Below are positions 3,495 through 59,406 of a stretch of 64,000 nt of DNA, in pieces. Source of the stretch: an uncultured Candidatus Poseidoniales archaeon (GTDB lineage Archaea; Thermoplasmatota; Poseidoniia; Poseidoniales; Thalassarchaeaceae); NCBI GenBank assembly GCA_964570065.1, contig CAZMVZ010000003.1, positions 7,512 to 71,511 on the forward strand, written 5' to 3'. How positions within the stretch are numbered: position 1 is the stretch's first letter; every line of letters starts with the position of its first letter. The position numbers and the translations under genes were made by a program. Under the pieces are notes generated by a model. That model saw only the letters and a program-made list of their open reading frames with translations. It made no database searches and was not told the DNA's origin.

Positions 3495-4286
3495 ATGGCT
3501 GAAGCACCCATCGAGTTGTGGGAGATGCAGGTAGCCTTCGCAATCGGTCTTTTGGGGATATACGTCGGTTGGAGGGGAACTATAGCAAAAATGACGGGAT
3601 TCTACGACTTATCCGGGGCCGTTAAGACTTTGCTATATGGGATAATTTCAGGGGTCTTGGCCGCTTCAGCCATTGATGCCCTGATACTATCAGAAGTCAG
3701 AAATGAGACTCAGAACATCATCTCGATTAGTGCAATCGCACTAGTGATCGCTCTGGCCGAGTCTTCATTCACACTATTCGTACTTGGCCGCTCTAGAACC
3801 GTTGGTTTGAGGGCCTGTGCCCCATATGGTTGGACACTCGGATTGGGTTTTGGAGCAATGCGTTCAGCCCATCTGAACGTCCGATTATTCGACCCAGTAG
3901 TGTGGGAGGGAACTGGTTTCAGCATACCAAACATCGTCTTGGCATTGCTTCTCACTGTGATAACCTGTCTTGGTCACGCATCAATTACTACATGGCAGGG
4001 ATCCAGAATGATCGAAAACAGTAGATTCCGACCAGTAGTTTACGCTTCCATCGCACGCTCTGCTCTGATTCTTGCCACAGTTCTCACAGTCTTCTTCCCA
4101 CCGACTCTGGCACTAGTCGCCCCCATTGTGGCGTGGTCTTGGTTCCCTGCCCAGGAATCATGGCTGCCATCCGGACTCACTCCTTCTGCAAGACAGGCGT
4201 ATAGGAGAACAATACGGCAAGCGGAGATGATCAAATCCAAGGCAGACAGAAGAATCAGGGGAAAGTTTGTCGATTCCGAGGAATAG
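3495..4286 (+). CDS. hypothetical polytopic membrane protein
   Basis: It has 6-7 predicted hydrophobic helices and a basic C-terminal tail. I recognise no family motif. Confidence 0.45.
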   Translation: MAEAPIELWEMQVAFAIGLLGIYVGWRGTIAKMTGFYDLSGAVKTLLYGIISGVLAASAIDALILSEVRNETQNIISISAIALVIALAESSFTLFVLGRSRTVGLRACAPYGWTLGLGFGAMRSAHLNVRLFDPVVWEGTGFSIPNIVLALLLTVITCLGHASITTWQGSRMIENSRFRPVVYASIARSALILATVLTVFFPPTLALVAPIVAWSWFPAQESWLPSGLTPSARQAYRRTIRQAEMIKSKADRRIRGKFVDSEE

Positions 4287-10809: not shown

Positions 10810-10819
10810 TTTGAAAAAA

Positions 10820-17695: not shown

Positions 17696-18337
17696 ATGTT
17701 GCCACCTCATCGGCACGGTTCTCCTCTTGAAGCCCCATTAAGCCTCAGTGATTTGCCCGAGAATGTAGATTGGGATGGAAGAATTGCATATCTGGATAGA
17801 GATGGTGTGTTAAATCGATGGAAGGAGAATTACGTCAATTCTCCCGACGAAGTAGAAATATTACTCGGTTCGGGAAAGGCAATTACTAGTCTAAGGAGAA
17901 TGGGTTTCAGGATTTGTGTAGTGACCAACCAATCACCTATAGGGCGCAATCTTTGGGGGCATGATGTCTTGGCTCAGATTAATGAGAGGTTACAGGAGCT
18001 CCTTCTCGAAGAGGATCGGGGAGCCGAAATAGATTTGATTCTGTATAGCCCATATTCACCATCCGAGGGCTCTTGGTCGAGAAAGCCTAACCCCGGAATG
18101 CTTGAAGCGGGAAGACAAATTGTTGACAATGCTCACAGATTCCCTGGAAAGCCGAATAATCTCTCATACGGTGACGAATGGATTGATCGGCCGGACGAAT
18201 CCGGCTCCATCCTAATTGGCGACCGGAAATCAGACATCATTGCTGCAGAGAGATTCGGAGTCAAAGGAATTCTATGCGGCCCCGAATCAGGAATCTCAGG
18301 AGTCATCGACCAGATCCTATCCGCCAAAGAGGGGTGA
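17696..18337 (+). CDS. gmhB: HAD-family D,D-heptose-1,7-bisphosphate phosphatase (GmhB/histidinol-phosphatase subfamily)
   Basis: The HAD motifs match the GmhB-type: YLDRDGVLN, VVTNQSPIGR, RKPNPGML and ILIGDRKSDIIAAERFG. Confidence 0.7.
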   Translation: MLPPHRHGSPLEAPLSLSDLPENVDWDGRIAYLDRDGVLNRWKENYVNSPDEVEILLGSGKAITSLRRMGFRICVVTNQSPIGRNLWGHDVLAQINERLQELLLEEDRGAEIDLILYSPYSPSEGSWSRKPNPGMLEAGRQIVDNAHRFPGKPNNLSYGDEWIDRPDESGSILIGDRKSDIIAAERFGVKGILCGPESGISGVIDQILSAKEG

Positions 18338-18341
18338 TCCA

Positions 18342-19589
18342 ATGAGGCTTTGCCGTATCGGTCTCGATGACACCGATCATGTTGATGTTGGTTGCACCAC
18401 TTCTAGTTTCGACCATCTTCTGACAGTGATTGAACAGGGGGTGGACTGCAAAGTAATCGAAAGAAGACTAGTACGCCTTTGGCCATTCGCCAGAAGAAGA
18501 ACCCGTGGGAACGGAGCTCTCGGTGCGATTCTAGAGATTCCCGATAATGGGGCTGATGATATTGAGAAAATCTGCTACGAGTGGTTCTCTGAATTATTGG
18601 AACAGGTTAGCAATCACCCACCTTCTGAGTTCAAAGCCTCTCCTTGCCTAGTAATTTCGTATGACTCAGCCCCTGATTATTGGTATTGGAACGCCGTCAG
18701 AAAACACGTCGATTCAGAAACACTGCTAGAAGATGCCACCCAGAGAGGGGCTGTAGTGTTCCGTTCAGAGACCACATTTGGAGTAGTGGGCGCCTGCGCT
18801 GCGATTTCCTGGGAAAACACTGGCAACTCTTCATGGGAACTTATCTCTTGGAGGGATGACTCCAGAATCGGTACGCCGAGGATTGTCTCATCCGAATCAG
18901 TCTTGGAACTGGAAAAAAGGCACCCAGAAACGTTCCTTAATCGGGATCCTACTAAGGGAAAGGGAATGATCGCCCCCAGAACTCCGTGCCCCGTCCTATA
19001 TGGTATTCGGGGGTCAACATACTCTGCAGTCGAAACGGCGCATCATTGGCTTCAATCGAGGAAGGATGTTGAGATAAGCAACTCTTTCGCAATTCATAGA
19101 ACAAATCAGCTCAGTGACGACCACATCGAGTCTTCAACATCAGGCACTGTAACCTCATTGCCGAAAGAGACCAGGGGAGGGCATGCACACATTTCCGTTT
19201 TCACTTCTGGAAAGGCAGCCAATCTCGTTGCTTTCTCAGAGGGAGGGCCAGTAAACAGACTCCTACGGTCTCTAATTCCAGGGGACAGGATTTCTTGGTC
19301 AGGGTTGGTTTCTCCCGATGGATCTATACATCTGGAGAAAATAAAACTCGACTCCGCAACTGCTAGAATTGTAGGAAGGCCCGTTTGCTGCTCTAGAACG
19401 ATGAGGAGTTCTGGCCGTGGACAGGGAATTCGTTGTTTATCGTGCGGGCGAAAAGAGAGAAAGTCATGGCTATGCATAGATTATGAGACAGCAATGGGGC
19501 ATTCTGTTGGCGAATGGCAAGAACCCTCTCCATCCAATCGAAGACACCTGTCTAGGCCTCTTTCACACGGTTTTCCTGGGACAAACTGA
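18342..19589 (+). CDS. tiaS: tRNA(Ile2) 2-agmatinylcytidine synthetase TiaS
   Basis: MRLCRIGLDDTDHVDVGCTTS and RTRGNGALG match the TiaS N-terminal kinase domain. A C-terminal zinc ribbon is present (CCSRT...CLSCGRK). The start at ATG 18342 lies just after the gmhB stop. Confidence 0.8.
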   Translation: MRLCRIGLDDTDHVDVGCTTSSFDHLLTVIEQGVDCKVIERRLVRLWPFARRRTRGNGALGAILEIPDNGADDIEKICYEWFSELLEQVSNHPPSEFKASPCLVISYDSAPDYWYWNAVRKHVDSETLLEDATQRGAVVFRSETTFGVVGACAAISWENTGNSSWELISWRDDSRIGTPRIVSSESVLELEKRHPETFLNRDPTKGKGMIAPRTPCPVLYGIRGSTYSAVETAHHWLQSRKDVEISNSFAIHRTNQLSDDHIESSTSGTVTSLPKETRGGHAHISVFTSGKAANLVAFSEGGPVNRLLRSLIPGDRISWSGLVSPDGSIHLEKIKLDSATARIVGRPVCCSRTMRSSGRGQGIRCLSCGRKERKSWLCIDYETAMGHSVGEWQEPSPSNRRHLSRPLSHGFPGTN

Positions 19590-28103: not shown

Positions 28104-29096
28104 TTAACCCTCCAAATCTTGCAGTATTTCAGATACCTTCTCTTCCGCACCATCAGCGCCTTCAGCGACCATTCTTCTCGCAAGAAAGAAAGCCTCTGTT
28201 GTTTTACCATCGGCCCTCAGCCTTTCAATCTTTGAGAACGGATCACGTTCATCATCCTCAAAGATTTCTCCAATCTCCGCGTATTGATCTGTTTTCGTTA
28301 GATTACCAAGCTTATCGAGAAAGGCAGCCCTATCCGAGATAGAGGGCGCTATCCAGGGGCCACCCTCACCGCCTCCTACAATCGACTCCATTCTGGACTT
28401 GAACCGCTCTATTGCTGTCGAATCGGGAAAAACACTCTTCGCCTGGTCATAACAAAGCCAGGCTTCGTCGTGCTGACCCCTTCTCTCATACATCATGCCC
28501 AATTCTTCCCACGCTTCGTGATTAATTGGCCTCTGTGAGAGAAGTATTCTCGTCAATTCAAGAAATAAATCTTCGAAACCACCCCTCCTGACTCTCTCAA
28601 GCCTTCTGGAGAATAGGATATTTGCTCTCTGATCGGAAACGTCAAGTCCTTTCAGCCTTTCAGAAAATGAGTCCATTCCGTCGGGTTCCCTGCTGATTTT
28701 ATCCCACCAATTGTCTGGGTCTAGTGGATCATTGGAGAAAGCCGCATGCAACAACCCTTCACACGAGTCTATGATGTCACGGTCCGCCAATTGCTCCATT
28801 AAATCAGGATCCCGCCCTAGGACCGAAAAGAGATCTGCTAGGACGGCCCTAGCTCCTTCGGAATCACGCATCAATACTTTGATTTTGATCAAAACTTCCC
28901 AATTTTCCTCATTCGTGAAGTCGTAGAGGACGCTTTGTTTGGCGCTCTGTTCTGCCCATGAGAGATTTTTGTCGTTTCCTTTCATTATTCTAAGGAACTT
29001 TTCAGCCTGACTCCTGTATCTGTTTCCCAGACTCCTACGGGGATGTTGAAGTGACTCTGATAGAAAACCATCTTCGCGCATTAGCCCCTCTCTCAT
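28104..29096 (-). CDS. TPR-like repeat protein, hypothetical
   Basis: It has a TPR-like segment (HEAWEELGMMYERRGQHDEAWLCYDQAKSVFPD). It is ATGA-coupled to the upstream UbiD-family gene and lies 2 nt before the Nudix gene. Confidence 0.5.
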   Translation of the reverse strand: MREGLMREDGFLSESLQHPRRSLGNRYRSQAEKFLRIMKGNDKNLSWAEQSAKQSVLYDFTNEENWEVLIKIKVLMRDSEGARAVLADLFSVLGRDPDLMEQLADRDIIDSCEGLLHAAFSNDPLDPDNWWDKISREPDGMDSFSERLKGLDVSDQRANILFSRRLERVRRGGFEDLFLELTRILLSQRPINHEAWEELGMMYERRGQHDEAWLCYDQAKSVFPDSTAIERFKSRMESIVGGGEGGPWIAPSISDRAAFLDKLGNLTKTDQYAEIGEIFEDDERDPFSKIERLRADGKTTEAFFLARRMVAEGADGAEEKVSEILQDLEG

Positions 29097-30364
29097 AGAA
29101 CAGACTCGAATGGCGAACGATCAATCCCCGGCTCTATGGTTGCATCGATGCCAATTTTGCTCGTTGTGCCATCTGAAGAACGACTTGGGTCCAAACTAGA
29201 GCCCTTTTGGCTTGAAAGAATTAGAGTGTCCCTATCCGGCTGCCATCGAGTCATCAAGGCCCACTCTACCCTTGATGAATCGGTTACATCAATGTCATTG
29301 TCAACCACAATGACCTGCTTCATTGATTTATGGCCATCTAATGCTGCCATAATGGCCTTCATACCATCGCCACTTTCCTCCGGAATAATCTGGACAACAG
29401 ATGACAACCATCCACTGCCACCATCTGTCAGATATACGTCAGTACAGGTCACTACTTCCGATACTGCTGTTTTGATGGTTGGAGCCCTGGGCATCCCCAT
29501 CAGAGTCATATGTTCTACTCCGGCCGGAATAAGTGCATGGAAAATTGGGTCATTCCTGTGGTGAATCTTGTCGTACTCGATAACTGGCTCAAGTCTAATG
29601 TCATCAACTGTTCCCGTAATATCCACATAAGGCCCCTCTTCTCCTGTGGAAGTTGTTATTCTCGCCTCCATGGCATATTCTGAAATTGCCGGGACAACAA
29701 CGCCGTTTGAAAGCTCCACAACTTCCAATTGGGAGTCATACAACCTTTCGTGAAGCGCTGCAGCAACTCTCAATTCGTCGAGTGGTTCGTCAAATGACAT
29801 TGCTGCTGCCAGGAGGACCACTGGATCGGGACCATTGACAACAGCAATGGGCACCTCATCATTTTTCTCCTGAGCATTATTTACCATTGTTCTCAGATGT
29901 CTGGGGACCAGTCTAACACAAGTGGTGCTCTCATCTTTGACTAATTGCCTATGGAAGGAAGTGTTCCGTAATCCCCCATATTGTGCTATGATAATGGAAG
30001 CTGACTGATACCTGCCCCCATCTTCTCTATAGTGCCAAGGAATTGGAATCCGCAATAAATCCGGAACATCCATGGTATTCTCCAATACAGACGAGTTCTC
30101 CCTTTCTATGAGGACCGGATCAGAGGGATTCTCCATCGCCCAAGAGAGTATGTCTATCAGTTCTCCAGGTTGTACTTCGAATGCTTCGCAAAGCCTCTGA
30201 CGAGTAAGTATGTTCATCGCAGCCCTGTGCCCGGGAGACTCAATAATCTCATTGAATAGGATAGGTTCGTTTCCCGATGTTTCAGACTCCTCTTTCATGT
30301 CAAAATTTACGCTCACCGGGACGTCACTTACTCGACTTCCATCGACAAGTTCCCTGAATCCCAT
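29093..30364 (-). CDS. UbiD-family (prFMN-dependent) decarboxylase
   Basis: EDGGRYQSASIIIAQYGGLRNTSFHRQLV and GEEGPYVDITG match the UbiD blocks (DGGPFIT...RN.G.YR; EGPFGE.TGYY). Confidence 0.75.
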   Translation of the reverse strand: MGFRELVDGSRVSDVPVSVNFDMKEESETSGNEPILFNEIIESPGHRAAMNILTRQRLCEAFEVQPGELIDILSWAMENPSDPVLIERENSSVLENTMDVPDLLRIPIPWHYREDGGRYQSASIIIAQYGGLRNTSFHRQLVKDESTTCVRLVPRHLRTMVNNAQEKNDEVPIAVVNGPDPVVLLAAAMSFDEPLDELRVAAALHERLYDSQLEVVELSNGVVVPAISEYAMEARITTSTGEEGPYVDITGTVDDIRLEPVIEYDKIHHRNDPIFHALIPAGVEHMTLMGMPRAPTIKTAVSEVVTCTDVYLTDGGSGWLSSVVQIIPEESGDGMKAIMAALDGHKSMKQVIVVDNDIDVTDSSRVEWALMTRWQPDRDTLILSSQKGSSLDPSRSSDGTTSKIGIDATIEPGIDRSPFESVL

Positions 30365-33871: not shown

Positions 33872-35599
33872 TTAACTGATTCTAATCAATTGGAAGTCAG
33901 TCAACTCCCTAAGAATCTCAACTGCTTGCGTGCTAGGCAGATTGTCCAAGCAATCGTGCGCCAACGAATGGTGATGCATAGCCCTGCTTCTTGCGTACTC
34001 TATTGATCCCGAGCTCCCCAATTCCAATACTGCCTTGGATAATGAATCTCCATCGGGATCACCAGAACCAAACACTCTTTCGAAATGCGGTAAATCATCG
34101 CCAGTCCGCTTTGCATGAATTGCTATCAGTGTCATCTTTCCTTGAACTATGTCGGATCCTGCGGGCTTCCCTAGAGTCTCCGTGTCCCCAGTGATGTCGA
34201 TTAGGTCGTCCATCAATTGGAAGCATAATCCTAGATTTAAGCCCCATTCTGCCATGTTTTCTACAGTCTCTTCATCCGCATTGGCTAGTATTGCTCCTGT
34301 TCTGGCGCAGGTCTCGAACATAGCACTAGTCTTTCCTGCGATCATTTCTATGTAGTCTTGTTCGGAGACCTCGTCACGGCTCTCAAATTCTATGTCCTCT
34401 TGCTGGCCCTCTGCAACCTTCCTAACCATCTCACCAATCGAACGAATAAGGTGGCTGAGCCGATTGTCTGGGATGTCTTCTGACTCTGCCAGTATTTCGA
34501 ATCCAACAGCCAACATTGCATCTCCAGCGTTTATTGCCGTGGCATCGTCGTATTCGACATGGACAGCATCAAGCCCCCTCCTAATTGGATCCTGGTCAAT
34601 TATATCATCATGAATTAAGGTAAAGTTATGGATAATTTCTATCGATGCACCTAGTGTATAATGACCATCATTTCCACCTCCTACAGCCTCTCCTACGAGT
34701 CTTGGCAAAATCGCCCTAAGCCTCTTACCACCTCCTTTGAACAGGTGCGTCATCGCTCCATGGAGGTTTTTCTGCTCCATCTTTCCTAGACTATCCATTA
34801 TCTCCCCCTCTACCCTGTCGCGATGGTCAGACAGAGCATCTAGCAGCGTCTGTCCCGGATTAACTGATTCTCCATCCATGTCTACTTCTCCACAGTAGAT
34901 TATACTCTCATTTATCGAACTTGCCATGGCATTTGGGTCGCAATCGTGGGGGATAGCAAATTTCTCCCAGATCAATCTGAACCAAGGGGCAATCACTTCA
35001 TCCCCCCAGTCTCCATCGCCTTCCATCATTCTGCTAATTTCTAATGAATCCGCCCAGAGAACATCTGAGATTTCATTTTCATTATGATTTACTTCAGTAT
35101 CGGCCTGAACTACCATGATGTGATCTATTTCCCTCTCTATCCAATCATTATCCCACCTGCAAGAATATTCCATTCTCCCAATGTGGCGGAAAGACCAAGT
35201 TTCAGTAATCCCCACCGGAATTCCAAGCTCTTGCTCTAATTTTCTCCTAGCGGCATTCTCAACTCCATTCGAACCCACATTTTCTGACACTATATCCAGA
35301 GGGTGACTACAGCAGCTGTTTGCCCATACTCCTGGGAATGTAATCTTCTCAGAAGATCTTTTCTGAACCAAAAGCCGTCCCAGTGAATCAAAAATTAGTA
35401 CACTGAAGGCCCGATGCCTAATTCCACCATCCTTGTGACAGACAAGTTTTGTCTCAGCACCAATGATTTTGTCATCACTATCTACAACTAGGCACATCTC
35501 ATCCATCATCCCTGCCTGAATCGAATCATGGTCTCCCACCTCGCCGATTTCAGGGGCCATTAAACTACATGGGGCAGAGTGGTGTATATGAAGACTCAA
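33872..35599 (-). CDS. fusion protein: type-1 isopentenyl-diphosphate isomerase (Nudix-type IDI) plus geranylgeranyl/polyprenyl diphosphate synthase
   Basis: The N-terminal half has HRAFSVLIFDSLGRLLVQKRSSEKITFPGVWANSCCSHP (IDI-1). The C-terminal half has LIHDDIIDQD (FARM) and FQLMDDLIDITGD (SARM). The exact start is uncertain: a TTG overlaps the ipk stop, or one of several Met codons up to MMDEMCLVV could be used. Confidence 0.85.
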   Translation of the reverse strand: MSLHIHHSAPCSLMAPEIGEVGDHDSIQAGMMDEMCLVVDSDDKIIGAETKLVCHKDGGIRHRAFSVLIFDSLGRLLVQKRSSEKITFPGVWANSCCSHPLDIVSENVGSNGVENAARRKLEQELGIPVGITETWSFRHIGRMEYSCRWDNDWIEREIDHIMVVQADTEVNHNENEISDVLWADSLEISRMMEGDGDWGDEVIAPWFRLIWEKFAIPHDCDPNAMASSINESIIYCGEVDMDGESVNPGQTLLDALSDHRDRVEGEIMDSLGKMEQKNLHGAMTHLFKGGGKRLRAILPRLVGEAVGGGNDGHYTLGASIEIIHNFTLIHDDIIDQDPIRRGLDAVHVEYDDATAINAGDAMLAVGFEILAESEDIPDNRLSHLIRSIGEMVRKVAEGQQEDIEFESRDEVSEQDYIEMIAGKTSAMFETCARTGAILANADEETVENMAEWGLNLGLCFQLMDDLIDITGDTETLGKPAGSDIVQGKMTLIAIHAKRTGDDLPHFERVFGSGDPDGDSLSKAVLELGSSGSIEYARSRAMHHHSLAHDCLDNLPSTQAVEILRELTDFQLIRIS

Positions 35600-44016: not shown

Positions 44017-45216
44017 ATGCTAATGGGATCCATATTAGAGAAAGATTGGAGGGCAGAACTGTCCAAAATTCCTATACCAATTTCTGTAAAAAACGACACA
44101 TTACTCTCACTTTCACTGGGGATTCTAATCGAAGGGGGAAGGATTCCAAAGGACGTCGGTTCCGATTTGCACAGGAATTCTGATCTCCCCGGCCTTACTG
44201 CACTAGCAAGTATGATTAAGCAATCCAGATTTGGCAATCATGTATTCTTTAACGAAAATCTACACGTAAATACTACGAACGTCTGTACTCTAGCTTGCCG
44301 TTTCTGTGCCTTCAGGAAGGGGTCAAGGCATAGTGAGGCATATTCACTTTCTGCAGAGGAGTTTGTATCTAGGATTGAGCCATATCGTGGATTAATTGAT
44401 GAGGTACACGCTGTTGGTGGCTTGCATCCAGAATGGACCATAGATAATTACTCGGAGATTTACGAGATGACAAAGAGAAACTTCCCCGAAATTAGCATCA
44501 AGTCACTGACTGCGGTAGAAGTGAAGCACATAGCATCTAGATCACAACTTTCGATAAAGGAGACTCTCAAGTCTCTGAAGAAATCAGGCCTCAATTCTCT
44601 GCCGGGGGGCGGGGCCGAAATATTGGTGGACTCAATTAGAGATCGGATATGCATGGGGAAGGAGAAGTCATCGGAATACTTGGAAATCCATGCAATTGCT
44701 CACGGACTAGGTATCCCTACAAATTGTACAATGCTATTCGGAACTATAGAGACTATCGAGGATAGAATGACGCACTTCGAAATGCTAAGAAACCAGCAGG
44801 ACAAATCTGGCGGTTTCCAGTGCTTCGTCCCTTATCCTTTCCTGGAAGACAATACCCGACTCCCAGAAGCCAAGTTAGCATCAGGTGAGGAGGTAATCAG
44901 AGTAATTGCTTTGTCCCGAATAATGTTAGATAACATCCCACACATCAAGGCTTACAGGATGAACATCGGCGACCACCTTGCTTCAATAGCAATCAATTCG
45001 GGCGCCGATGATATCGATGGTACAGTCGGCCATGAGGAGATTATGCACTTAGCTGGGAGTGCCACGAGTACTGATTATGACAGTTCTAAACTAGCCCGAC
45101 TAATCGAATCAGCTGGTCAAGAACCTGTGAAGAGGGACTCCACTTACGAAAGATTCGAATCGTTTGACTCCGAGTTAATGGGAGAAAAATTGGTTCTGCC
45201 AATAGTAGGTCAGTGA
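44017..45216 (+). CDS. radical SAM enzyme of the futalosine pathway (MqnE/MqnC family)
   Basis: NTTNVCTLACRFCAF contains CX3CX2C. LFGTIETIEDRMTHFEMLRNQQDKSGGFQCFVPYPF is typical of the MqnC/MqnE/CofH clade. It is adjacent to mqnA. I cannot separate MqnE from MqnC by eye. Confidence 0.7.
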   Translation: MLMGSILEKDWRAELSKIPIPISVKNDTLLSLSLGILIEGGRIPKDVGSDLHRNSDLPGLTALASMIKQSRFGNHVFFNENLHVNTTNVCTLACRFCAFRKGSRHSEAYSLSAEEFVSRIEPYRGLIDEVHAVGGLHPEWTIDNYSEIYEMTKRNFPEISIKSLTAVEVKHIASRSQLSIKETLKSLKKSGLNSLPGGGAEILVDSIRDRICMGKEKSSEYLEIHAIAHGLGIPTNCTMLFGTIETIEDRMTHFEMLRNQQDKSGGFQCFVPYPFLEDNTRLPEAKLASGEEVIRVIALSRIMLDNIPHIKAYRMNIGDHLASIAINSGADDIDGTVGHEEIMHLAGSATSTDYDSSKLARLIESAGQEPVKRDSTYERFESFDSELMGEKLVLPIVGQ

Positions 45217-45220
45217 CAGA

Positions 45221-46018
45221 ATGTCTTGGAAGAGGACTCTTGGTAGGGTTTCATTCATCAATTGCGAACCCATTTTCCATTCAATTGGCCAGAATTGGCA
45301 TATTCTGGCCGCACCTCCTTCATGGCTAACGGGGCACCTTCTTAGGAGGGATTGCATAACTGCTCCCATACCAGCGGCCGACTATGCAATAAATTTCAAT
45401 GAGCTAAATCTATTACGGGACATAGGAATAGTTGGTAGAGAGTCTGTTGGTTCTGTCATTCTTTTCGGCAACAGATCCCTTGAGTCAATGCGGGACATCG
45501 CATTACCCTCTGACTCATCGACATCAAACATGCTCCTGAAGTGGATTCTTGGACAGAGGTGCTTAGACCCAAAACTGGTACCAATGGGTCCAGACATAGA
45601 AACGATGCTGGGTGAATGCGATGGAGCGCTAATTATCGGGGACCGGGCATTATCAGCAGCACTCGCGAGCCCTGAACTTGTTAGGATGGATTTGAGCAGG
45701 GAGTGGACAAACATTACTGGTCTCCCGATGGTCTTTGGAGTATTTGCTGCTAGAAACGACTCTTCGCCAAGTATTGTCGATGAAGCAAGGGAATCAATGC
45801 TCAGAAGCTACAACGGATTCCTGATTGATGATGATACAAGGGGCGATGTAGTCTCTATTGCGTCGCAGAAGATTGGCCTCCCCTTGGGCAGAATTAGCAA
45901 ATATTTCGAATCTGAGGTTTCGAATATTCTCGACAAATCTTCCATCGAAGGACTGAGAGTGTTCCTCGATGAAGTGTGCAGGATGGGTTCGCAACCACGT
46001 TGGTTCGACTCTGTTTAA
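45221..46018 (+). CDS. mqnA: chorismate dehydratase MqnA (VitK2 biosynthesis family)
   Basis: LGRVSFINCEPIFHSI resembles the MqnA N-terminal block. The size is about 265 aa and it has mqn neighbours. Confidence 0.6.
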   Translation: MSWKRTLGRVSFINCEPIFHSIGQNWHILAAPPSWLTGHLLRRDCITAPIPAADYAINFNELNLLRDIGIVGRESVGSVILFGNRSLESMRDIALPSDSSTSNMLLKWILGQRCLDPKLVPMGPDIETMLGECDGALIIGDRALSAALASPELVRMDLSREWTNITGLPMVFGVFAARNDSSPSIVDEARESMLRSYNGFLIDDDTRGDVVSIASQKIGLPLGRISKYFESEVSNILDKSSIEGLRVFLDEVCRMGSQPRWFDSV

Positions 46019-46491
46019 TCCGTGTAATCTAACCTATCACTAGAAACCCAATTTAGTAAATCAATTGCCACTTCGCATGATTCGGCTACTACAATCTCAT
46101 CGTCCATTGCGAATTTCTCCAATGTCGCCATTGCAATTCTGTTTCCAATTGCACCTAGAGCCTCAGCAGCCTCGTGCCTAACCATGACATCCTCTCCCAT
46201 GTCCTCCAATCGGCTAATCAGATGTGGGACCGCATGATCATCCTGCATCTGCCCCAGTACGTATGCAACTTCATGCTTCAATAGTGCAGATGATGAGTCA
46301 AAGGCAGCAGCCAATGAGTCAACAGCATCCTTTCCCCCGATGTTCCTTAGAGCAAACAGGGCCCTCATCCGTTGGAACATCCGCTCTTCTTCATCACAGA
46401 GCCTTGCCCTAAGGTCCCCTACAGCCAAACTCTCGTTGGCTGGTGCAGGGTCAACCGAACCGAACTCGCTTACATCTGGTCTTTCTGTCAT
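46015..46491 (-). CDS. HEAT-repeat protein homologous to one half of deoxyhypusine hydroxylase (DOHH-like, two His-Glu motifs)
   Basis: RMRALFALRNIGG, SSALLKHEVAYVLGQMQ, VMVRHEAAEALGAIG and VVAESCEVAIDLLNW line up with the N-terminal half of human and yeast DOHH as I recall them. It has an ATGA overlap with the mqnD stop. Confidence 0.7.
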   Translation of the reverse strand: MTERPDVSEFGSVDPAPANESLAVGDLRARLCDEEERMFQRMRALFALRNIGGKDAVDSLAAAFDSSSALLKHEVAYVLGQMQDDHAVPHLISRLEDMGEDVMVRHEAAEALGAIGNRIAMATLEKFAMDDEIVVAESCEVAIDLLNWVSSDRLDYTD

Positions 46492-47351
46492 TGCTCTTCA
46501 GCCCCAATGAACTCCATTCCTCTCGCATCGAAGGTACTCCTGACCAGCCCAACTTCCTGACCTCTTTCAAGGAATAACCTAACTGCTTCACGTCCCTCAG
46601 GACCATAGTCTATCGTTCGATCGTTCACATACATTCTGACGAACTCCTCGTTTGTATCCTCATCGATTCCTCTTCCCCACTTAATTGCATCTCGCAGAGC
46701 AAGTTCAGGATTGGAGAGGGAATACTCAATGCTCTTCTTGATGTCATTAGAAATCCCCTTGCACATTTCTTCTCCGAGATCCCTTCTCACAACATTCCCC
46801 CCAAGTGGTAATGGTAGGCCAGTGGTGCGATTCCACCAAACTCCAAGGTTGATGACCATGAACGCGCCTTCATTGGACCATGTTAGCTGACCTTCGTGGA
46901 TTATCACTCCTGCATCGTACTCACCACTCAGAACACCCGGTTGAATTCTATCGAAAGGCACCTCCTTTACTTGGACATCGCCCAATGCAAGTACAAGTGA
47001 TAAGTATGAACTCGTGCTCTTCCCAGGAACAGCGATCACCCTATTCTTTGCATCCTCAATACTCATTTCCCTATTAGAAATTAGTATTGGCCCATAACCC
47101 TCTCCCATCGACGCTCCACAATTCATTAGAGCGTACTCTTTGGAAATCTTGGGGTACGAGTGTATGCTTACAGCAGAAACCTCGAAGTTACCACGCTGCG
47201 CCTCTTGATTAAGGGTATCAATGTCCACCAATACATGCTCATATTTCCTTCCAGGGGTATCAATGAGGCCCTGAGTCAGGGCATGGAACATGAAAGCATC
47301 ATCGGGGTCCGGTGAATGCCCTACACGAATCCTCAGCACCTCCTCAACCAT
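46488..47351 (-). CDS. mqnD: 1,4-dihydroxy-6-naphthoate synthase MqnD (VitK2 biosynthesis family)
   Basis: IRVGHSPDPDDAFMFHALTQGLIDT resembles the MqnD block (SPCPNDTF.FhAl). The size is about 285 aa. Confidence 0.6.
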   Translation of the reverse strand: MVEEVLRIRVGHSPDPDDAFMFHALTQGLIDTPGRKYEHVLVDIDTLNQEAQRGNFEVSAVSIHSYPKISKEYALMNCGASMGEGYGPILISNREMSIEDAKNRVIAVPGKSTSSYLSLVLALGDVQVKEVPFDRIQPGVLSGEYDAGVIIHEGQLTWSNEGAFMVINLGVWWNRTTGLPLPLGGNVVRRDLGEEMCKGISNDIKKSIEYSLSNPELALRDAIKWGRGIDEDTNEEFVRMYVNDRTIDYGPEGREAVRLFLERGQEVGLVRSTFDARGMEFIGAEEQ

Positions 47352-48935: not shown

Positions 48936-49946
48936 TTGAATAGTGTTGAACTACGGAAACTATCCGTGATTGACCCGTTGGACGATGTTGATACGGATTC
49001 TGAAGGCCCCCCCAAGCCACTGCCACCCCCTCCTCCGGGAATCAACATGCCAATGCCAGAACCAGAAGTTCCATTGCCTGAGATTCCATCAGTTCCTGAT
49101 ATTCCACCACCTCCCCAGTTCGGCTTTGTGCCAGAGCCTTCTGCCGATGGCGACCTTTTAGACGCTGCAAATTCCCTATCCGCCAATACTCCAAGCCCAT
49201 CTGTGAATCAACCTTCTGATTTCAAATCAGTTTGGGATAAGAGGAAGACATCAAACCCCTCGATATCGAGTGGCTCAAGAGATAGCATTTACAACAGAAT
49301 AGACAGGATCTCAACAGGTCGAGGCGAATCTCTGATGGACAGATATGCCGACCGGTTCGGATCCGATCTAGACAGGGAAATTATCGTTCTTAGGAAGAAG
49401 GATCAAGACGATTTGACCACTATTAAGCCAACAGTTGAGCTTATCTCTGAGGCCAGTAAAACTGAAATGTCACTAGCAGAATTCCTTGAGGCCATGGACG
49501 ATTCTGATTTCGTAGGGCGTGTAGCGGAGAAGACAGGTGTCTCCGTGGACAAGATAGACGAACTAGATCTGGACTCTATGCAAGAGTTCTTCCAGAGCGC
49601 TGACAAAGACAACTCCGGATCGTTGGATTTCGACGAGTTTGTCAATGGAATTATCGAGAGCTTCAGGAGCTACGACGAGGACTTCTCACACTTCTTCACG
49701 GTGGTTAATGGCCTCCTCGGCCAATTGCCCGATGACAAGACTCTAGCATTCATAGAATCGGACGGATTCAAACTATTCGAGTCAGTCGGTAATGACCCAA
49801 AGGCCATCGATAAGGAATCACGGGGCGAGTTCTTCACGATGGTTAATGAACTGCTTGTAGACCTGCCCGAAGCAGTCATGAAGTCATTCACGGAATCTAA
49901 TGATTTTGATTTGTACAAGCTCATAGCTAGCAGGTATGGTGTTTGA
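48936..49946 (+). CDS. hypothetical protein with polyproline N-terminal region, one canonical EF-hand loop and a duplicated C-terminal module
   Basis: Seen in sequence: PPKPLPPPPPG...IPPPPQ, and DKDNSGSLDFDE flanked by helices. FFTVVNGLLGQLPDDKTLAFIESDGFKLFESVG repeats as FFTMVNELLVDLPEAVMKSFTESNDFDLYKLIA. The start codon is uncertain (TTG 48936 or GTG 48966). Confidence 0.5.
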   Translation: MNSVELRKLSVIDPLDDVDTDSEGPPKPLPPPPPGINMPMPEPEVPLPEIPSVPDIPPPPQFGFVPEPSADGDLLDAANSLSANTPSPSVNQPSDFKSVWDKRKTSNPSISSGSRDSIYNRIDRISTGRGESLMDRYADRFGSDLDREIIVLRKKDQDDLTTIKPTVELISEASKTEMSLAEFLEAMDDSDFVGRVAEKTGVSVDKIDELDLDSMQEFFQSADKDNSGSLDFDEFVNGIIESFRSYDEDFSHFFTVVNGLLGQLPDDKTLAFIESDGFKLFESVGNDPKAIDKESRGEFFTMVNELLVDLPEAVMKSFTESNDFDLYKLIASRYGV

Positions 49947-57200: not shown

Positions 57201-58325
57201 ATGGGGGGGAAATTGCAAACACTGCTAGTTTCTGCTTTGCTTTTCATACCACTTATTGCACCCTCAGTTGCAGGTGAATGGGGCACCGATACTTGGCTCT
57301 CAAGCGTAATTTCTGAAGAACGCCTGGCTAGCGGTGATGAGTTCGGATGCCAAGGCTATGAGGGCATAGTGACGACCGATGAGCCTTGGGTCATCGCTGC
57401 ATGCAAGGAATATCTGGAAGGGCAAACAAACGCCTCAAGATGGGGAAATAGCCCCATTTCATTCGGAATAGATTCAGATGTCATTACCGCCGAATTGGGA
57501 GCCTCTCTGAAAAATTCCGGATTCCAGATCGTAGGTGACATGGTCGAAGAGGCTCCCGAAGGCCTGTCTATTGCAATTAGGAATGGCGCCAGTCTGGAGA
57601 AGGGAGTAGCCGATAAAACACTGATTGAATCGGCTGAGGAGGACTCCCTCGTAAGCGTTCACTGGAGGGCTCGAATCGGTGATCTACGCGTTCGCGAGGA
57701 CAAGGATGTGATTTCTTGGATTGAGGAGCAACAGGTTTGGTTCACAACTTGGGGTGAGTGGCATAATCATAGAGAATCAGGGATCTCTACTACAGCGTCT
57801 GTGAATGGCTCTACAATTACTATCGATTCATCCCCCCAGCAACTGGGAACTCACACTTGGTCGGTTCCCGGTACTGTGATGATCGAATTCGAATCCACTG
57901 TGGCAGATGTGTCTGATTCCGAGGGTAAATCTCTGCCATTGCTAACTGGTACGGAACGTAAACTCGTTACTGGGTGGCGTCACGTTGAGGGGGGAATTAT
58001 AGTAACCCAAGACCCTCATTCAACGATAATTGTTGAACTGGAAAATAGTACTAATAATGTTGAAACTACTCCGATGGTCACATTCAACGACCTCGACTAT
58101 TCGATTACGATAGTCGGTCACCACACAACTAATCTTTTCAGGTGGACTCAGGATTTCTCTGGTACCGAACTAACCTTCACATGGTTGGTTGAGAGGCCAA
58201 CAGAAGACGTGGTGGGTTGGAAATTGCCCCTATTCGCTCTAACGATGCTCATTGCCGTTCCACTTTCGATAGTATTTCTACTTAGAAACGACCAATTCTG
58301 GGGATCTAGAGATCAGGACCACTGA
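57201..58325 (+). CDS. secreted/cell-surface protein with N-terminal signal peptide and C-terminal TM anchor, hypothetical
   Basis: It has a signal-like N-terminus (LLVSALLFIPLIAPSVAGEW) and a C-terminal helix (LPLFALTMLIAVPLSIVFLL) followed by RND. No PGF motif is present. Confidence 0.5.
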   Translation: MGGKLQTLLVSALLFIPLIAPSVAGEWGTDTWLSSVISEERLASGDEFGCQGYEGIVTTDEPWVIAACKEYLEGQTNASRWGNSPISFGIDSDVITAELGASLKNSGFQIVGDMVEEAPEGLSIAIRNGASLEKGVADKTLIESAEEDSLVSVHWRARIGDLRVREDKDVISWIEEQQVWFTTWGEWHNHRESGISTTASVNGSTITIDSSPQQLGTHTWSVPGTVMIEFESTVADVSDSEGKSLPLLTGTERKLVTGWRHVEGGIIVTQDPHSTIIVELENSTNNVETTPMVTFNDLDYSITIVGHHTTNLFRWTQDFSGTELTFTWLVERPTEDVVGWKLPLFALTMLIAVPLSIVFLLRNDQFWGSRDQDH

Positions 58326-59406
58326 TCAAAGGCCCTTCGATTTCCACGCCCTCACGAATCATTCGGGATACTATTCTCCCCACTGCTTCGGGAGGAAGTG
58401 CCTCGGGGGGGTGAACTCCTGGTGGAAGCATATTGGGATCGTTTAGCCACTCTTCAACACAGCATATTGTTACTAGGCCCGTGGCTCTAGCCATTGAATG
58501 CCCATCATCGCCACCGTGATCCTGCACACGCCAAGTCATTTTCTTCCCATTATGGTCCTCTGCAGTAACCTCCATCCAGGTGAACTCAGGTATTTTTTCG
58601 TTATACTGCCATTCGTTTGTTAGCATCTGAACGTCTATTTTCCCAGACTCTCTTTGATCAATGAACCTTTGGATGTGCCCTGGCCACCTAACGGTATACT
58701 CGGAAAGGTCAACAGCGGGAATTGTGGTTAGGACGCTCCTAAGCCCATCTGTCAGGAAGGCTTCCATCGTTCCTTTCTCGGGCACTTCTATCTCGTGCCT
58801 CTCAGAGAGTGCCGGCAACGTCACTAGCTCAGAATCTCTGATTACCCTCGCAGGCCTAGTATACTCAGCTACAACGTCAATTGGTGAAAATGGTGCCATG
58901 TAGTTCCAACCTTCGGTGGGACCCGTTGGATTGCCCCCGACTCTCACTTCTCCATTCTTCAAAGCCCCCATCTCACCGTAAGCCAATGAAAGAAGCATGT
59001 TGGATAGGCCAGGTGCAATGCCTGTATCCCACAGGATTGTTGCCCCGTATTCCTTAGCCTTCTCATCATCCCTGTCCGGTGTGAACTCGCTGAAACTTAG
59101 GTCAACGGTTCTCCATGGCAACTCTGCAAGTGATGTTGTGCTTGAATGCCCTATGTCCCCAGGTAGCATATTGACCACAATGTCACTATTCGGTTCGAAT
59201 GTAATGCCTTCCCGCGAGTATACTAGTTCCAGCATCAGATCTATCGGGTCTTCATCTGGCTCTAGATGATGAATTTCGATTCCGGGAATCCCCATAACAC
59301 GATGTGGCTGGGGGTCATAGGCATGGACAGTAAAACCCGACTCTGCAAACTTCCTAGCTACATAGGAACCCACTAGTCCAACCCCGAAGCAGTGTATGAC
59401 GGCCAC
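58306..59406 (-). CDS. saccharopine dehydrogenase-family NAD(P)-dependent oxidoreductase
   Basis: It has an N-terminal Rossmann motif (VIHCFGVGLVGSYVARKF) and GIAPGLSNML, and is about 366 aa. The substrate is not inferable. Confidence 0.6.
   Translation of the reverse strand: MAVIHCFGVGLVGSYVARKFAESGFTVHAYDPQPHRVMGIPGIEIHHLEPDEDPIDLMLELVYSREGITFEPNSDIVVNMLPGDIGHSSTTSLAELPWRTVDLSFSEFTPDRDDEKAKEYGATILWDTGIAPGLSNMLLSLAYGEMGALKNGEVRVGGNPTGPTEGWNYMAPFSPIDVVAEYTRPARVIRDSELVTLPALSERHEIEVPEKGTMEAFLTDGLRSVLTTIPAVDLSEYTVRWPGHIQRFIDQRESGKIDVQMLTNEWQYNEKIPEFTWMEVTAEDHNGKKMTWRVQDHGGDDGHSMARATGLVTICCVEEWLNDPNMLPPGVHPPEALPPEAVGRIVSRMIREGVEIEGPLISGPDL

What the first reader, a model, noticed from the sequence alone, without database searches (positions are those of the whole stretch)
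46015..46491. Half-size deoxyhypusine-hydroxylase-like di-iron HEAT protein in an archaeon, translationally coupled to mqnD
Seen in sequence: the 158-aa product aligns by eye along nearly its whole length with one half of eukaryotic DOHH.
- RMRALFALRNIGG aligns with RFRALFTLRGLGG.
- SSALLKHEVAYVLGQMQ aligns with SALLKHELAYCLGQMQ.
- VMVRHEAAEALGAIG aligns with PMVRHEAGEALGAIG.
- VVAESCEVAIDLLNW aligns with VAETCQLAVRRLEW.
The human and yeast sequences are recalled from memory. The product carries exactly two His-Glu pairs (KHE, RHE).
Established knowledge: DOHH is a two-lobed HEAT-repeat enzyme whose di-iron site is built from four His-Glu pairs, two per symmetric half. It is regarded as eukaryote-specific. 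To my knowledge the enzyme that hydroxylates deoxyhypusine in those archaea that contain hypusine has not been identified.
Inference: a single-lobe protein would have to homodimerise to form the di-iron site. It could be an ancestral-type DOHH acting on aIF5A.
Alternative: its ATG overlaps the mqnD stop (ATGA at 46488-46491) inside a futalosine cluster, so it could instead be a di-iron oxygenase acting on a naphthoquinone intermediate.
Basis: partly seen in the sequence, partly recalled or inferred. Interest (0 to 1): 0.78.

Follow-up and report, generated by a model that had tools for sequence, protein, structure and literature searches.

The report
Single-lobe archaeal deoxyhypusine hydroxylase homologue
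A marine archaeon (Marine Group II) encodes a well-conserved, half-length version of the eukaryotic enzyme that completes the hypusine modification of translation factor 5A, although the papers I could read say archaea have no such enzyme, and it resembles the single unit from which the two-lobed eukaryotic enzyme was built.

Summary
ORF 46015..46491 (-) encodes 158 aa that match human deoxyhypusine hydroxylase (DOHH, PDB 4D4Z) at E=1.8e-70. Each DOHH lobe scores 112-128 bits, against 44 bits or less per stretch for generic HEAT proteins. Both His-Glu pairs (H73-E74, H106-E107) and Gly80 are invariant in 35 homologues. These residues correspond to the human iron ligands and the substrate-binding Glu and Gly.

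The window is from a Marine Group II archaeon (Poseidoniales). At least 365 stretches in prokaryotic species-representative genomes encode a relative. A second group of 164-198 aa proteins occurs in other Thermoplasmatota.

The mqnD adjacency holds in 79 of 80 Poseidoniales loci, but the whole neighbourhood is syntenic there. The adjacency is absent in all seven non-Poseidoniales contexts read. A menaquinone role is therefore unlikely.

The archaeal unit scores equally on profiles of eukaryotic N-lobes and C-lobes. It is therefore undifferentiated, not a truncated C-lobe.

The most likely function is a homodimeric di-iron hydroxylase that converts deoxyhypusine to hypusine on aIF5A. Dimerisation, iron binding and substrate are all inferred.

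Automatic pipelines already name it "deoxyhypusine monooxygenase". I found no paper describing it, and reviews state that archaea have no DOHH homologue. I rate it a new variant of a known kind.

The parts
46015..46491 (-). Gene for the 158-aa single-lobe DOHH homologue. It comprises an N-terminal extension, four HEAT hairpins and a C-terminal tail.
   Evidence: ORF. Human DOHH match at E=1.8e-70. AF2 model with pLDDT 88.3 and eight helices. Best structural match is 4d4z at TMq 0.82-0.83. dN/dS 0.05-0.11.
46270..46275 (-). Codons for His73-Glu74, the first His-Glu motif. It corresponds to human H56-E57 and H207-E208.
   Evidence: Read in the sequence. Aligned to the human HE motifs. Invariant in 35 homologues. 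Roles of the human residues are given in PMC9117371.
46171..46176 (-). Codons for His106-Glu107, the second His-Glu motif. It corresponds to human H89-E90 and H240-E241.
46252..46254 (-). Codon for Gly80. It corresponds to human G214 and its N-lobe counterpart G63, residues implicated in binding the deoxyhypusine side chain.
   Evidence: Alignment positions. Invariant. PMC9117371; that review prints the N-lobe residue as G65.
46441..46458 (-). Codons for S12-V-D-P-A-P17 in the N-terminal extension. This is the same motif as in the inter-lobe linker of eukaryotic DOHH.
   Evidence: Aligned with human 'SVDPAP'. S12, D14, P15, A16 and P17 are invariant in archaea. The motif is invariant in 19 eukaryotic DOHH sequences.
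46488..46491 (-). ATGA overlap of the mqnD stop codon with the start codon of the DOHH homologue.
   Evidence: Overlap or a gap of at most a few bases recurs in relatives.
46488..47351 (-). Upstream gene mqnD (1,4-dihydroxy-6-naphthoate synthase family). It is context, probably co-transcribed.
   Evidence: Pfam VitK2_biosynth at 1e-69. PDB AF1704 at 230 bits and TTHA1568 at 180 bits.
45221..46018 (+). Convergent downstream gene, mqnA-like (chorismate dehydratase family). Its stop codon overlaps the stop codon of the DOHH homologue. Context only.
   Evidence: Pfam VitK2_biosynth at 5.6e-42. PDB chorismate dehydratase at 66 bits.
44017..45216 (+). Radical SAM gene of the MqnE/MqnC/CofH type. Context only.
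   Evidence: NCBIfam MqnE 373.6 bits and MqnC 321.4 bits, both below the equivalog cut-offs.

Best explanation
The gene encodes a single-lobe member of the deoxyhypusine hydroxylase (DOHH, EC 1.14.99.29) lineage.

Each chain folds into four HEAT hairpins and carries one half of the DOHH active site: two His and one Glu as iron ligands, plus the Glu and Gly that hold the deoxyhypusine side chain.

Two chains would associate about a two-fold axis, in the way the N- and C-lobes of the eukaryotic enzyme pack against each other. That would build one di-iron centre at the interface.

The centre would activate O2 and hydroxylate C2 of the deoxyhypusine residue on archaeal initiation factor 5A, giving hypusine.

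In Marine Group II the gene is read from the same transcript as mqnD. I take that as operon bookkeeping in an aerobe, not as a shared pathway.

Shown here: homology, fold, conservation of catalytic residues, purifying selection, distribution and gene context.

Inferred: dimerisation, iron binding, O2 chemistry and the identity of the substrate.
For: 1. DOHH-specific similarity. The match to human DOHH has E=1.8e-70. The lobes score 111.6 and 127.5 bits, against about 44 bits or less per stretch for designed HEAT proteins. All close full-length relatives in a 1.84-billion-protein library are about 300-aa proteins matched in two stretches. The few whose source was checked are eukaryotic.

2. Fold. 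The AF2 model has pLDDT 88.3. Its best PDB match is 4d4z at TMq 0.82-0.83 and 50-51% identity. The next matches have TMq about 0.67 and 32-35% identity.

3. Catalytic residues. H73, E74, G80, H106 and E107 are invariant in 35 sequences from two archaeal groups only 53-59% identical to each other. They align with human H56/H207, E57/E208, G63/G214, H89/H240 and E90/E241. The roles of those human residues in iron and substrate binding are given in PMC9117371.

4. Selection. dN/dS is 0.05-0.11.

5. Dimer compatibility. Two copies fused head to tail model with pTM 0.87 and superpose on human DOHH at TM 0.93 and rmsd 1.5 A over 285 columns.

6. Substrate pathway. aIF5A is used as a universal archaeal single-copy marker (PMC9258230). 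DHS is reported in all archaeal genomes (PMC5178350 and PMC7773846). A Poseidoniales MAG carries a speDA-speB-speY cluster, where speY is a DHS homologue (PMC10407285).

7. Independence from menaquinone genes. Non-Poseidoniales Thermoplasmatota keep the protein with no mqn neighbour. One Poseidoniales locus keeps it without mqnD.
Against: - There is no biochemical evidence of any kind.
- No DHS or aIF5A gene lies in the window or in any of the fetched loci. Gene context therefore gives no positive link to aIF5A.
- The only cultured Thermoplasmatota examined ('thermoplasmales') were reported to contain deoxyhypusine with little or no hypusine (PMC5178350). Whether those organisms carry this gene was not tested.
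- The tandem model used an alignment of eukaryotic two-lobed DOHH. It shows compatibility with the two-lobe arrangement, not an independent prediction of a dimer.
- The tight, conserved coupling to mqnD in Poseidoniales (79 of 80 loci) remains unexplained.
Confidence: 0.62

Rival explanations
1. It is a di-iron oxygenase of quinone metabolism. Co-transcribed with mqnD, it would hydroxylate or otherwise oxidise a naphthoate or menaquinone intermediate, or make a modified quinone.
For: - A 4-base ATGA overlap with mqnD sits inside an mqnD / mqnA / radical-SAM cluster.
- The adjacency is present in 79 of 80 Poseidoniales species-representative loci.
Against: - The whole neighbourhood (PriS, transketolase, mqn genes) is syntenic across Poseidoniales, so conserved adjacency says little about function.
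- In seven contexts from other Thermoplasmatota the orthologue, with all key residues invariant, has no mqn neighbour.
- Locus L065 keeps the gene although mqnD and the radical SAM gene are absent there.
- Identity of 45-47% to both lobes of eukaryotic DOHH, including the residues that bind the deoxyhypusine side chain, is hard to reconcile with a change to an aromatic substrate.
- From my own knowledge, the futalosine pathway has no known hydroxylation step.
Confidence: 0.1
2. It is a DOHH-derived di-iron hydroxylase that acts on something other than aIF5A, for example a free polyamine such as homospermidine or another aminobutyl-lysine-bearing protein.
For: - The active-site residues are conserved, but nothing here ties the enzyme to aIF5A.
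- Poseidoniales carry a DHS homologue that one paper labels SpeY, a homospermidine synthase type (PMC10407285).
- A homodimer would present a symmetric surface, unlike the differentiated lobes of the eukaryotic enzyme.
Against: - Eukaryotic DOHH is strictly specific for eIF5A (PMC9117371).
- Sequence conservation between the archaeal and eukaryotic proteins is very high for a changed substrate.
- DHS homologues clustered with agmatinase genes are the arrangement used for aIF5A modification in other archaea. That the Prunetti paper (PMC5178350) reports this arrangement is my recollection; the passages I retrieved from it do not cover it.
Confidence: 0.17
3. It is a non-catalytic HEAT-repeat protein (scaffold or binding protein), or a relic fragment of a eukaryotic gene acquired by transfer or contamination.
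For: - Pfam sees only generic HEAT_PBS / HEAT_2 repeats.
- NCBI names most members 'HEAT repeat domain-containing protein'.
Against: - The metal-ligand and substrate residues are invariant, and dN/dS is 0.05-0.11.
- At least 365 stretches in prokaryotic species-representative genomes encode a relative. The 80 loci read are all Poseidoniales and have a conserved archaeal gene context.
- Length is constant at 157-163 aa.
- The protein is not a truncated C-lobe. It scores equally on N-lobe and C-lobe profiles (difference -2 bits), whereas eukaryotic C-lobes differ by +32 bits with a minimum of +13.
Confidence: 0.04

Closest known systems
Eukaryotic deoxyhypusine hydroxylase (human DOHH, PDB 4D4Z/4D50; yeast Lia1; EC 1.14.99.29)
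   Same: - HEAT-hairpin fold with TMq 0.82-0.83 to 4d4z.
- Mean identity of 45-47% to each lobe, and 49-53% to the human lobes.
- His-Glu motifs and the substrate-binding Gly lie at the same positions.
- The [FY]-x-S-V-D-P-A-P motif of the linker and the aromatic C-terminal tail are shared.
   Different: - It has one lobe (158 aa, four hairpins, two His-Glu pairs) where the eukaryotic enzyme has two (about 300 aa, eight hairpins, four pairs). The di-iron site cannot form within one chain.
- The lobe is undifferentiated. It scores equally on N-lobe and C-lobe profiles.
- A dimer would carry two SVDPAP extensions where the eukaryotic enzyme has one linker.
- The host is an archaeon, and the gene is operonic with mqnD.
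Half-size DOHH-like proteins of other Thermoplasmatota (for example P0387, named 'deoxyhypusine monooxygenase [Thermoplasmata archaeon]' by NCBI; P0257)
   Same: The one-lobe architecture and all invariant residues are the same, at 53-59% identity.
   Different: They are 164-198 aa, with longer and more variable N-terminal extensions. They have ALLRHE where Poseidoniales have ALLKHE. Their gene contexts differ (Peptidase_M28, purH and folate genes, and others) and contain no mqn genes.
PBS-lyase-type HEAT proteins (CpcE/CpcF, NblB, MTH187, designed alphaRep proteins)
   Same: They share the repeat type (Pfam HEAT_PBS at 3.7e-16) and a four-hairpin solenoid fold with TMq about 0.66.
   Different: Similarity is much weaker. 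NblB scores 40 bits against a cut-off of 300, CpcE 27 against 330, and alphaRep 44 bits or less per stretch. The alphaRep sequences aligned carry no His-Glu at the positions of the two DOHH motifs.

Membership tests
DOHH (deoxyhypusine hydroxylase/monooxygenase) | Sequence similarity specific to DOHH, clearly above that to generic HEAT_PBS proteins | tested here: met
   The match to 4d4z has E=1.8e-70, with lobes at 111.6 and 127.5 bits. The best stretches of alphaRep proteins score 37-44 bits. NblB and CpcE fall far below their cut-offs. In the representative library, the relatives beyond the archaeal half-size clusters are about 300-aa proteins matched in two stretches.
DOHH (deoxyhypusine hydroxylase/monooxygenase) | HEAT-hairpin alpha-solenoid fold of a DOHH lobe | tested here: met
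   The AF2 model has pLDDT 88.3, with eight helices forming four hairpins. The top Foldseek hits are 4d4z_A and 4d4z_B at TMq 0.82-0.83.
DOHH (deoxyhypusine hydroxylase/monooxygenase) | Eight HEAT repeats in one chain arranged as a symmetrical dyad with four His-Glu motifs | tested here: not met
   The chain has 158 aa, four hairpins and two His-Glu motifs. All archaeal homologues are 157-198 aa. The feature could be met only at the level of a dimer.
DOHH (deoxyhypusine hydroxylase/monooxygenase) | Iron ligands conserved (human H56, H89, E90 / H207, H240, E241) | tested here: met
   H73, H106 and E107 align with these residues in both lobes and are invariant in 35 sequences. Ligand assignment comes from PMC9117371.
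DOHH (deoxyhypusine hydroxylase/monooxygenase) | Residues that bind the deoxyhypusine side chain conserved (human E57, E90, E208, E241, G63/G214) | tested here: met
   E74, E107 and G80 are invariant. Their positions are taken from the alignment and their roles from PMC9117371.
DOHH (deoxyhypusine hydroxylase/monooxygenase) | Two lobes pack so that the His/Glu ligands converge on a di-iron site (here, by homodimerisation) | tested here: inconclusive
   A head-to-tail tandem of two copies models with pTM 0.87 and matches 4d4z at TM 0.93 and rmsd 1.5 A. However, the alignment used was of eukaryotic two-lobed DOHH. No multimer prediction could be run and no coordinates were available to measure ligand distances.
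DOHH (deoxyhypusine hydroxylase/monooxygenase) | Binds two Fe and forms a peroxo-diiron(III) intermediate; hydroxylates deoxyhypusine on a/eIF5A | not testable with these tools
   Biochemistry is required.
DOHH (deoxyhypusine hydroxylase/monooxygenase) | Co-occurs with deoxyhypusine synthase and a/eIF5A in the same genome | not tested
   Neither gene is in the window or the fetched loci. No tool could target Poseidoniales DHS. Literature only: aIF5A is a universal archaeal marker (PMC9258230), DHS is reported in all archaeal genomes, and a DHS homologue is reported in a Poseidoniales MAG (PMC10407285).
Phycobilin lyase / NblB type HEAT proteins | Score above the NCBIfam equivalog cut-off | tested here: not met
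   NblB scores 40.3 against 300, CpcE 27 against 330, and CpeY 14.2 against 600.
Futalosine (mqn) pathway enzyme | Gene linkage to mqn genes conserved wherever the protein occurs | tested here: not met
   Linkage is present in 79 of 80 Poseidoniales loci. It is absent in L085 and L088-L095 from other Thermoplasmatota and in L065.

The most novel reading that the evidence does not exclude
The Thermoplasmatota half-size protein would be a living representative of the pre-duplication form of DOHH, a homodimeric di-iron enzyme. Eukaryotic DOHH would have arisen from such a unit by head-to-tail duplication and fusion, with the tail of unit 1 plus the SVDPAP extension of unit 2 becoming the inter-lobe linker. 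The two lobes would then have differentiated. It would follow that aerobic planktonic archaea make true hypusine with a DOHH of their own, and that the complete hypusine pathway is not a eukaryotic invention.
Probability: 0.35. Interest if true: 0.85.

Novelty: new variant of a known kind. Interest (0 to 1): 0.72.

Why it matters
Reviews of hypusine biology state that DHS is universal in archaea but that no DOHH homologue exists there (PMC5178350, PMC7773846, PMC8153317). This leaves the origin of the second step of the pathway unexplained.

This family is abundant. Marine Group II are among the commonest archaea in the surface ocean. The protein is highly conserved and carries every residue known to matter in the human enzyme, yet it has only one lobe.

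If it is active, four things follow:
- Hypusine formation by a DOHH-type enzyme occurs in archaea.
- There would be a natural minimal, symmetric version of an unusual HEAT-repeat di-iron oxygenase, useful for mechanistic and structural work.
- The origin of the eukaryotic enzyme by internal duplication becomes directly testable.
- Searches for hypusine versus deoxyhypusine on aIF5A in marine metaproteomes gain a clear motive.

It does not explain hypusine in Crenarchaeota. I did not see the family there.

Tried and rejected
1. Looked for aIF5A and DHS in the window and in 84 related loci, by motif scan and by tblastn with human DHS and M. jannaschii aIF5A sequences written from memory. Nothing was found. 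The window does not cover those genes.

2. Could not retrieve a Poseidoniales DHS. The third homologue search was therefore left unused.

3. Searched the supplements of Rinke et al. (PMC6461757) for K00809, K06072 and 'deoxyhypusine'. There were no occurrences. The supplement of PMC10407285 holds no sequences.

4. Tried to read Park, Aravind et al. 2006 (PMC1324997) and a review by Wolff et al. for earlier evolutionary analysis. Neither is held.

5. Considered an origin as a truncated C-lobe of a eukaryotic gene, because the end-to-end alignment is with the linker plus C-lobe. Rejected for any modern C-lobe. N- and C-profile scores are equal. Lobe-discriminating consensus sites split 4 C-like to 3 N-like. 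In the neighbour-joining tree the archaeal clade joins at the N/C junction on a short arm (0.33, against 0.57 and 0.61), although bootstrap support is weak, with the three clades recovered in 19-42% of replicates.

6. Considered two paralogues forming a heterodimer. The only genome with two loci (UBA105: L046 and L047) has the same gene context at both, which looks like a strain mixture in a MAG.

7. Treated gene context as functional evidence. It was discounted because the whole region is syntenic within the order.

8. NCBIfam gave no equivalog for the protein itself or for either VitK2_biosynth paralogue.
Full report
**The observation**

The ORF at 46015..46491 (minus strand) exists as described and encodes 158 aa. 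Its ATG overlaps the TGA of the upstream gene as ATGA at 46488-46491. Its TAA overlaps the TAA of the convergent downstream gene at 46015-46018.

The upstream gene is MqnD-like: Pfam VitK2_biosynth at 1e-69, and Thermus TTHA1568 'menaquinone biosynthetic enzyme' at 180 bits. The downstream convergent gene is MqnA-like, matching chorismate dehydratase at 66 bits. Next to it lies an MqnE/MqnC-type radical SAM gene.

The product has exactly two His-Glu dipeptides: H73-E74 (46270..46275) and H106-E107 (46171..46176).

**Is the match DOHH-specific or generic HEAT?**

Pfam sees only HEAT_PBS and HEAT_2. NCBIfam gives NblB at 40 bits against a cut-off of 300, and CpcE at 27 against 330.

Against PDB sequences, human DOHH stands far above everything else:
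- E=1.8e-70 and 239 bits overall.
- Query 29-150 against chain positions 17-138 scores 111.6 bits.
- Query 5-146 against chain positions 144-285 scores 127.5 bits.
- Designed alphaRep proteins give 37-44 bits for their best stretches.

Chain positions in 4d4z are UniProt numbering plus 5.

In a library of 1.84 billion representative proteins, the relatives beyond the archaeal half-size clusters are about 300-aa proteins matched in two stretches. Those whose source I checked include a fungus, a EukProt transcript, and metagenome proteins named deoxyhypusine monooxygenase.

An AlphaFold2 model built on 35 archaeal homologues has pLDDT 88.3, with eight helices forming four hairpins. Its best structural match in the PDB is 4d4z, at TMq 0.82-0.83 and 50-51% identity. 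AlphaRep proteins follow at TMq about 0.67 and 32-35% identity.

**Who has it**

The best 120 homologues are all 157-163 aa, apart from one of 173 aa. They come from marine metagenomes. Where named, they are Candidatus Thalassarchaeaceae, Thalassarchaeum or 'Euryarchaeota archaeon' MAGs.

A scan of one genome per prokaryotic species found 365 stretches that encode a relative. The best 80 are all Poseidoniales / Marine Group II records, and the top one is 98% identical to the window.

The most divergent half-size representative (P0257, 169 aa, 58-60% identical) led to a second large group of 164-198 aa proteins. These come from MAGs labelled Thermoplasmatota or Thermoplasmata archaeon.

JGI names many members 'deoxyhypusine monooxygenase', and one NCBI record does the same. 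Most NCBI records say 'HEAT repeat domain-containing protein'.

I saw no member from outside Thermoplasmatota. However, only the tops of the hit lists are visible, so absence elsewhere is not shown.

**Conservation**

The alignment covers 35 sequences from both archaeal groups, which are 53-59% identical between groups. Its invariant positions include H73, E74, G80, H106 and E107, and S12, D14, P15, A16 and P17 of the N-terminal extension.

By the alignment, these residues correspond as follows:

| Archaeal residue | Human N-lobe | Human C-lobe |
|---|---|---|
| H73 | H56 | H207 |
| E74 | E57 | E208 |
| G80 | G63 | G214 |
| H106 | H89 | H240 |
| E107 | E90 | E241 |

The review by Park and colleagues (PMC9117371) assigns H56, H89, E90, H207, H240 and E241 to the di-iron centre. 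[quoted passage not shown] That review prints the N-lobe glycine as G65.

dN/dS between the window gene and five relatives is 0.05-0.11. This is a real gene under strong constraint, and every residue known to matter in the human enzyme is kept.

**Gene context**

MqnD lies immediately upstream in 79 of 80 Poseidoniales loci. PriS, both transketolase halves, mqnA and the radical SAM gene are conserved in place as well. The linkage therefore reflects order-wide synteny more than a functional tie.

One locus, L065, keeps the gene while mqnD and the radical SAM gene are absent.

In seven contexts from the non-Poseidoniales group (L085, L088/L089, L090, L091, L093, L094, L095) there is no mqn gene nearby. 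The neighbours there are a Peptidase_M28 gene, purH and folate genes, alanine racemase and others. No context contains aIF5A or DHS either.

This weakens the naphthoquinone-oxygenase alternative. It also means that gene context gives no positive evidence for the aIF5A assignment, which rests on homology.

**One unit, not a broken gene**

End to end, the archaeal protein aligns with the second half of eukaryotic DOHH: linker, C-lobe and C-terminal tail. That might suggest a truncated C-lobe. Four analyses of the 118-column core argue against it.

1. Mean pairwise identities:

| Comparison | Mean identity |
|---|---|
| Archaeal unit vs eukaryotic N-lobes | 45.3% |
| Archaeal unit vs eukaryotic C-lobes | 46.6% |
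| Eukaryotic N-lobes vs C-lobes | 38.7% |
| N-lobes vs N-lobes | 42.6% |
| C-lobes vs C-lobes | 48.5% |

For human DOHH alone the values are 49.6% (N-lobe), 53.0% (C-lobe) and 41.7% (N against C).

2. At the seven sites where the N-lobe and C-lobe consensus residues differ, the archaeal consensus follows C at four and N at three.

3. Neighbour joining gives three clades that meet at one node. The arms are 0.33 (archaeal), 0.57 (C) and 0.61 (N). Bootstrap support for the individual clades is weak, at 19-42%.

4. Scores on profile HMMs built from the eukaryotic lobes:

| Sequences scored | N-lobe profile | C-lobe profile |
|---|---|---|
| Archaeal units | 154-157 bits | 150-154 bits |
| Eukaryotic N-lobes | 151 bits | 120 bits |
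| Eukaryotic C-lobes | 132 bits | 165 bits |

The smallest C-minus-N difference among eukaryotic C-lobes is +13 bits.

The archaeal unit is therefore undifferentiated and lies close to the point where the two lobes diverged.

The boundaries fit a head-to-tail fusion. The eukaryotic linker ends in [FY]-x-S-[VI]-D-P-A-P, like the archaeal N-terminal extension. The distance from the conserved aromatic residue that ends the N-lobe to that Ser has a median of 18 residues (range 11-37) in 37 eukaryotic sequences. A direct junction of two archaeal units would give 21.

These data fit a pre-duplication lineage. They do not exclude an early transfer from a stem eukaryote, or secondary 'symmetrisation' of a lobe that was forced to homodimerise.

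**Can two chains make the site?**

One chain carries only half of the ligand set, and I found a single copy per genome. The one MAG with two loci (UBA105: L046, L047) looks like a strain mixture. A homodimer is therefore the simplest solution.

No multimer predictor was available. As a proxy I modelled two copies fused head to tail, using an alignment of eukaryotic DOHH sequences. The result had pLDDT 88.9 and pTM 0.87. It superposes on human DOHH at TM 0.93 (normalised to the target) and rmsd 1.5 A over 285 columns.

This shows that the archaeal sequence is compatible with both lobe positions. It is not an independent prediction, because the alignment came from two-lobed proteins. I had no coordinates with which to measure the metal site.

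In the tandem model the residues around DPAP in the second copy reach a pLDDT of about 87. In the monomer model they reach about 50. This hints that the extension packs against the partner lobe.

**The substrate side**

Neither DHS nor aIF5A lies in the window or the fetched loci, and I could not retrieve them from a Poseidoniales genome with the tools available. The evidence is published statements:
- aIF5A is used as a universal archaeal single-copy marker (PMC9258230).
- DHS is reported in all sequenced archaeal genomes (PMC5178350 and PMC7773846).
- A Poseidoniales MAG and a Marine Group II/III fosmid carry a speDA-speB-speY cluster, in which speY is a DHS homologue (PMC10407285).

The window also encodes TiaS. 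From my own knowledge, TiaS uses agmatine.

Early amino-acid analyses found deoxyhypusine, with little or no hypusine, in cultured 'thermoplasmales' (PMC5178350). I did not test whether those organisms carry this gene.

**What is known**

Papers from 2016, 2020 and 2021 state that no DOHH orthologue or homologue has been identified in any archaeon. Searches combining deoxyhypusine, DOHH or hypusine with Marine Group II, Poseidoniales, Thermoplasmat*, Asgard and aIF5A found no paper that describes one. A 2026 review was among the papers checked.

The library does not hold most subscription journals. Automatic annotation already attaches the DOHH name to some members. The claim of novelty is therefore limited to this: the protein is present in databases under an automatic name and, as far as I could find, undescribed in the literature.

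**Verdict**

The protein is a genuine single-lobe homologue of DOHH. It is widespread in Marine Group II and other Thermoplasmatota, under strong purifying selection, and has the full half-set of catalytic residues.

The best explanation is a homodimeric di-iron deoxyhypusine hydroxylase acting on aIF5A (confidence 0.62). The rivals are a DOHH-like oxygenase with another amine substrate (0.17), a quinone-pathway oxygenase (0.10) and a non-catalytic HEAT protein (0.04).

It fails one defining feature of the eukaryotic family, eight repeats and four His-Glu motifs in one chain. I therefore file it as a new variant of a known kind rather than a plain new member.

Noticed in passing
window 44017..45216 (+): The mqn cluster here holds only one CofH/MqnC/MqnE-type radical SAM gene, whereas the futalosine pathway needs both MqnE and MqnC. 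The gene scores below both NCBIfam equivalog cut-offs: MqnE 373.6 against 434.55, and MqnC 321.4 against 428.1.
   Followed up: no
L035, L055, L057, L063, L069-L071, L075, L079 (gap of about 2.6 kb after the match at 10001-10470 or equivalent); L086 8542..10902: In a subset of Marine Group II species there is a gap of about 2.6 kb between the half-size DOHH gene and mqnA. In L086 a 786-aa WD40 beta-propeller gene of about 2.4 kb occupies that position. I did not read the gap in the other loci.
   Followed up: partly
L065 1955..4784: This is one Poseidoniales MAG contig. The half-size DOHH gene (3508..3990) sits directly between PriS and the mqnA-like gene. mqnD and the radical SAM gene are missing from the locus. 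This could be a real deletion or a MAG assembly artefact.
   Followed up: partly
window 33872..35599 (-): A 575-aa protein combines a NUDIX domain (residues 61-206) with a polyprenyl synthetase domain (residues 277-514).
   Followed up: no
window 28104..30364 (-): A UbiD-family decarboxylase (TIGR00148, 300.7 bits; only 82.7 bits to the menaquinone decarboxylase model) lies next to a TPR protein. It may be the later decarboxylation step of the futalosine route, about 16 kb from the mqn cluster.
   Followed up: no
window 58306..59406 (-): A 366-aa protein has a saccharopine dehydrogenase C-terminal domain and no NCBIfam match. Its neighbour at 57201..58325 has no Pfam or NCBIfam match at all. 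From my own knowledge, this domain family includes carboxyspermidine dehydrogenase and homospermidine synthase, so the protein could bear on polyamine supply.
   Followed up: partly
window 10811..16117 (+): A 1768-aa Lhr-type helicase (DEAD, Helicase_C, WH_Lhr and DEAD_assoc domains) has a long C-terminal region with a weak AlkZ-like match.
   Followed up: no
window 48936..49946 (+): A 336-aa protein has a proline-rich N-terminus and an EF-hand. A 327-aa gene with a weak EF-hand_1 hit sits in the same place beside PriS in the four loci L001-L004.
   Followed up: no
window 18216..19589 (+): A TiaS gene (tRNA-Ile2 agmatidine synthetase; TiaS_FLD and TiaS_TCKD domains) is present. It is an archaeal marker and, from my own knowledge, implies that agmatine is available in the cell.
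   Followed up: no
L046 and L047 (both from MAG UBA105): Two copies of the whole mqnD / half-DOHH / mqnA region, 71-72% identical to the window protein, occur on different contigs of one MAG. This is probably a mixture of strains, not paralogy.
   Followed up: no
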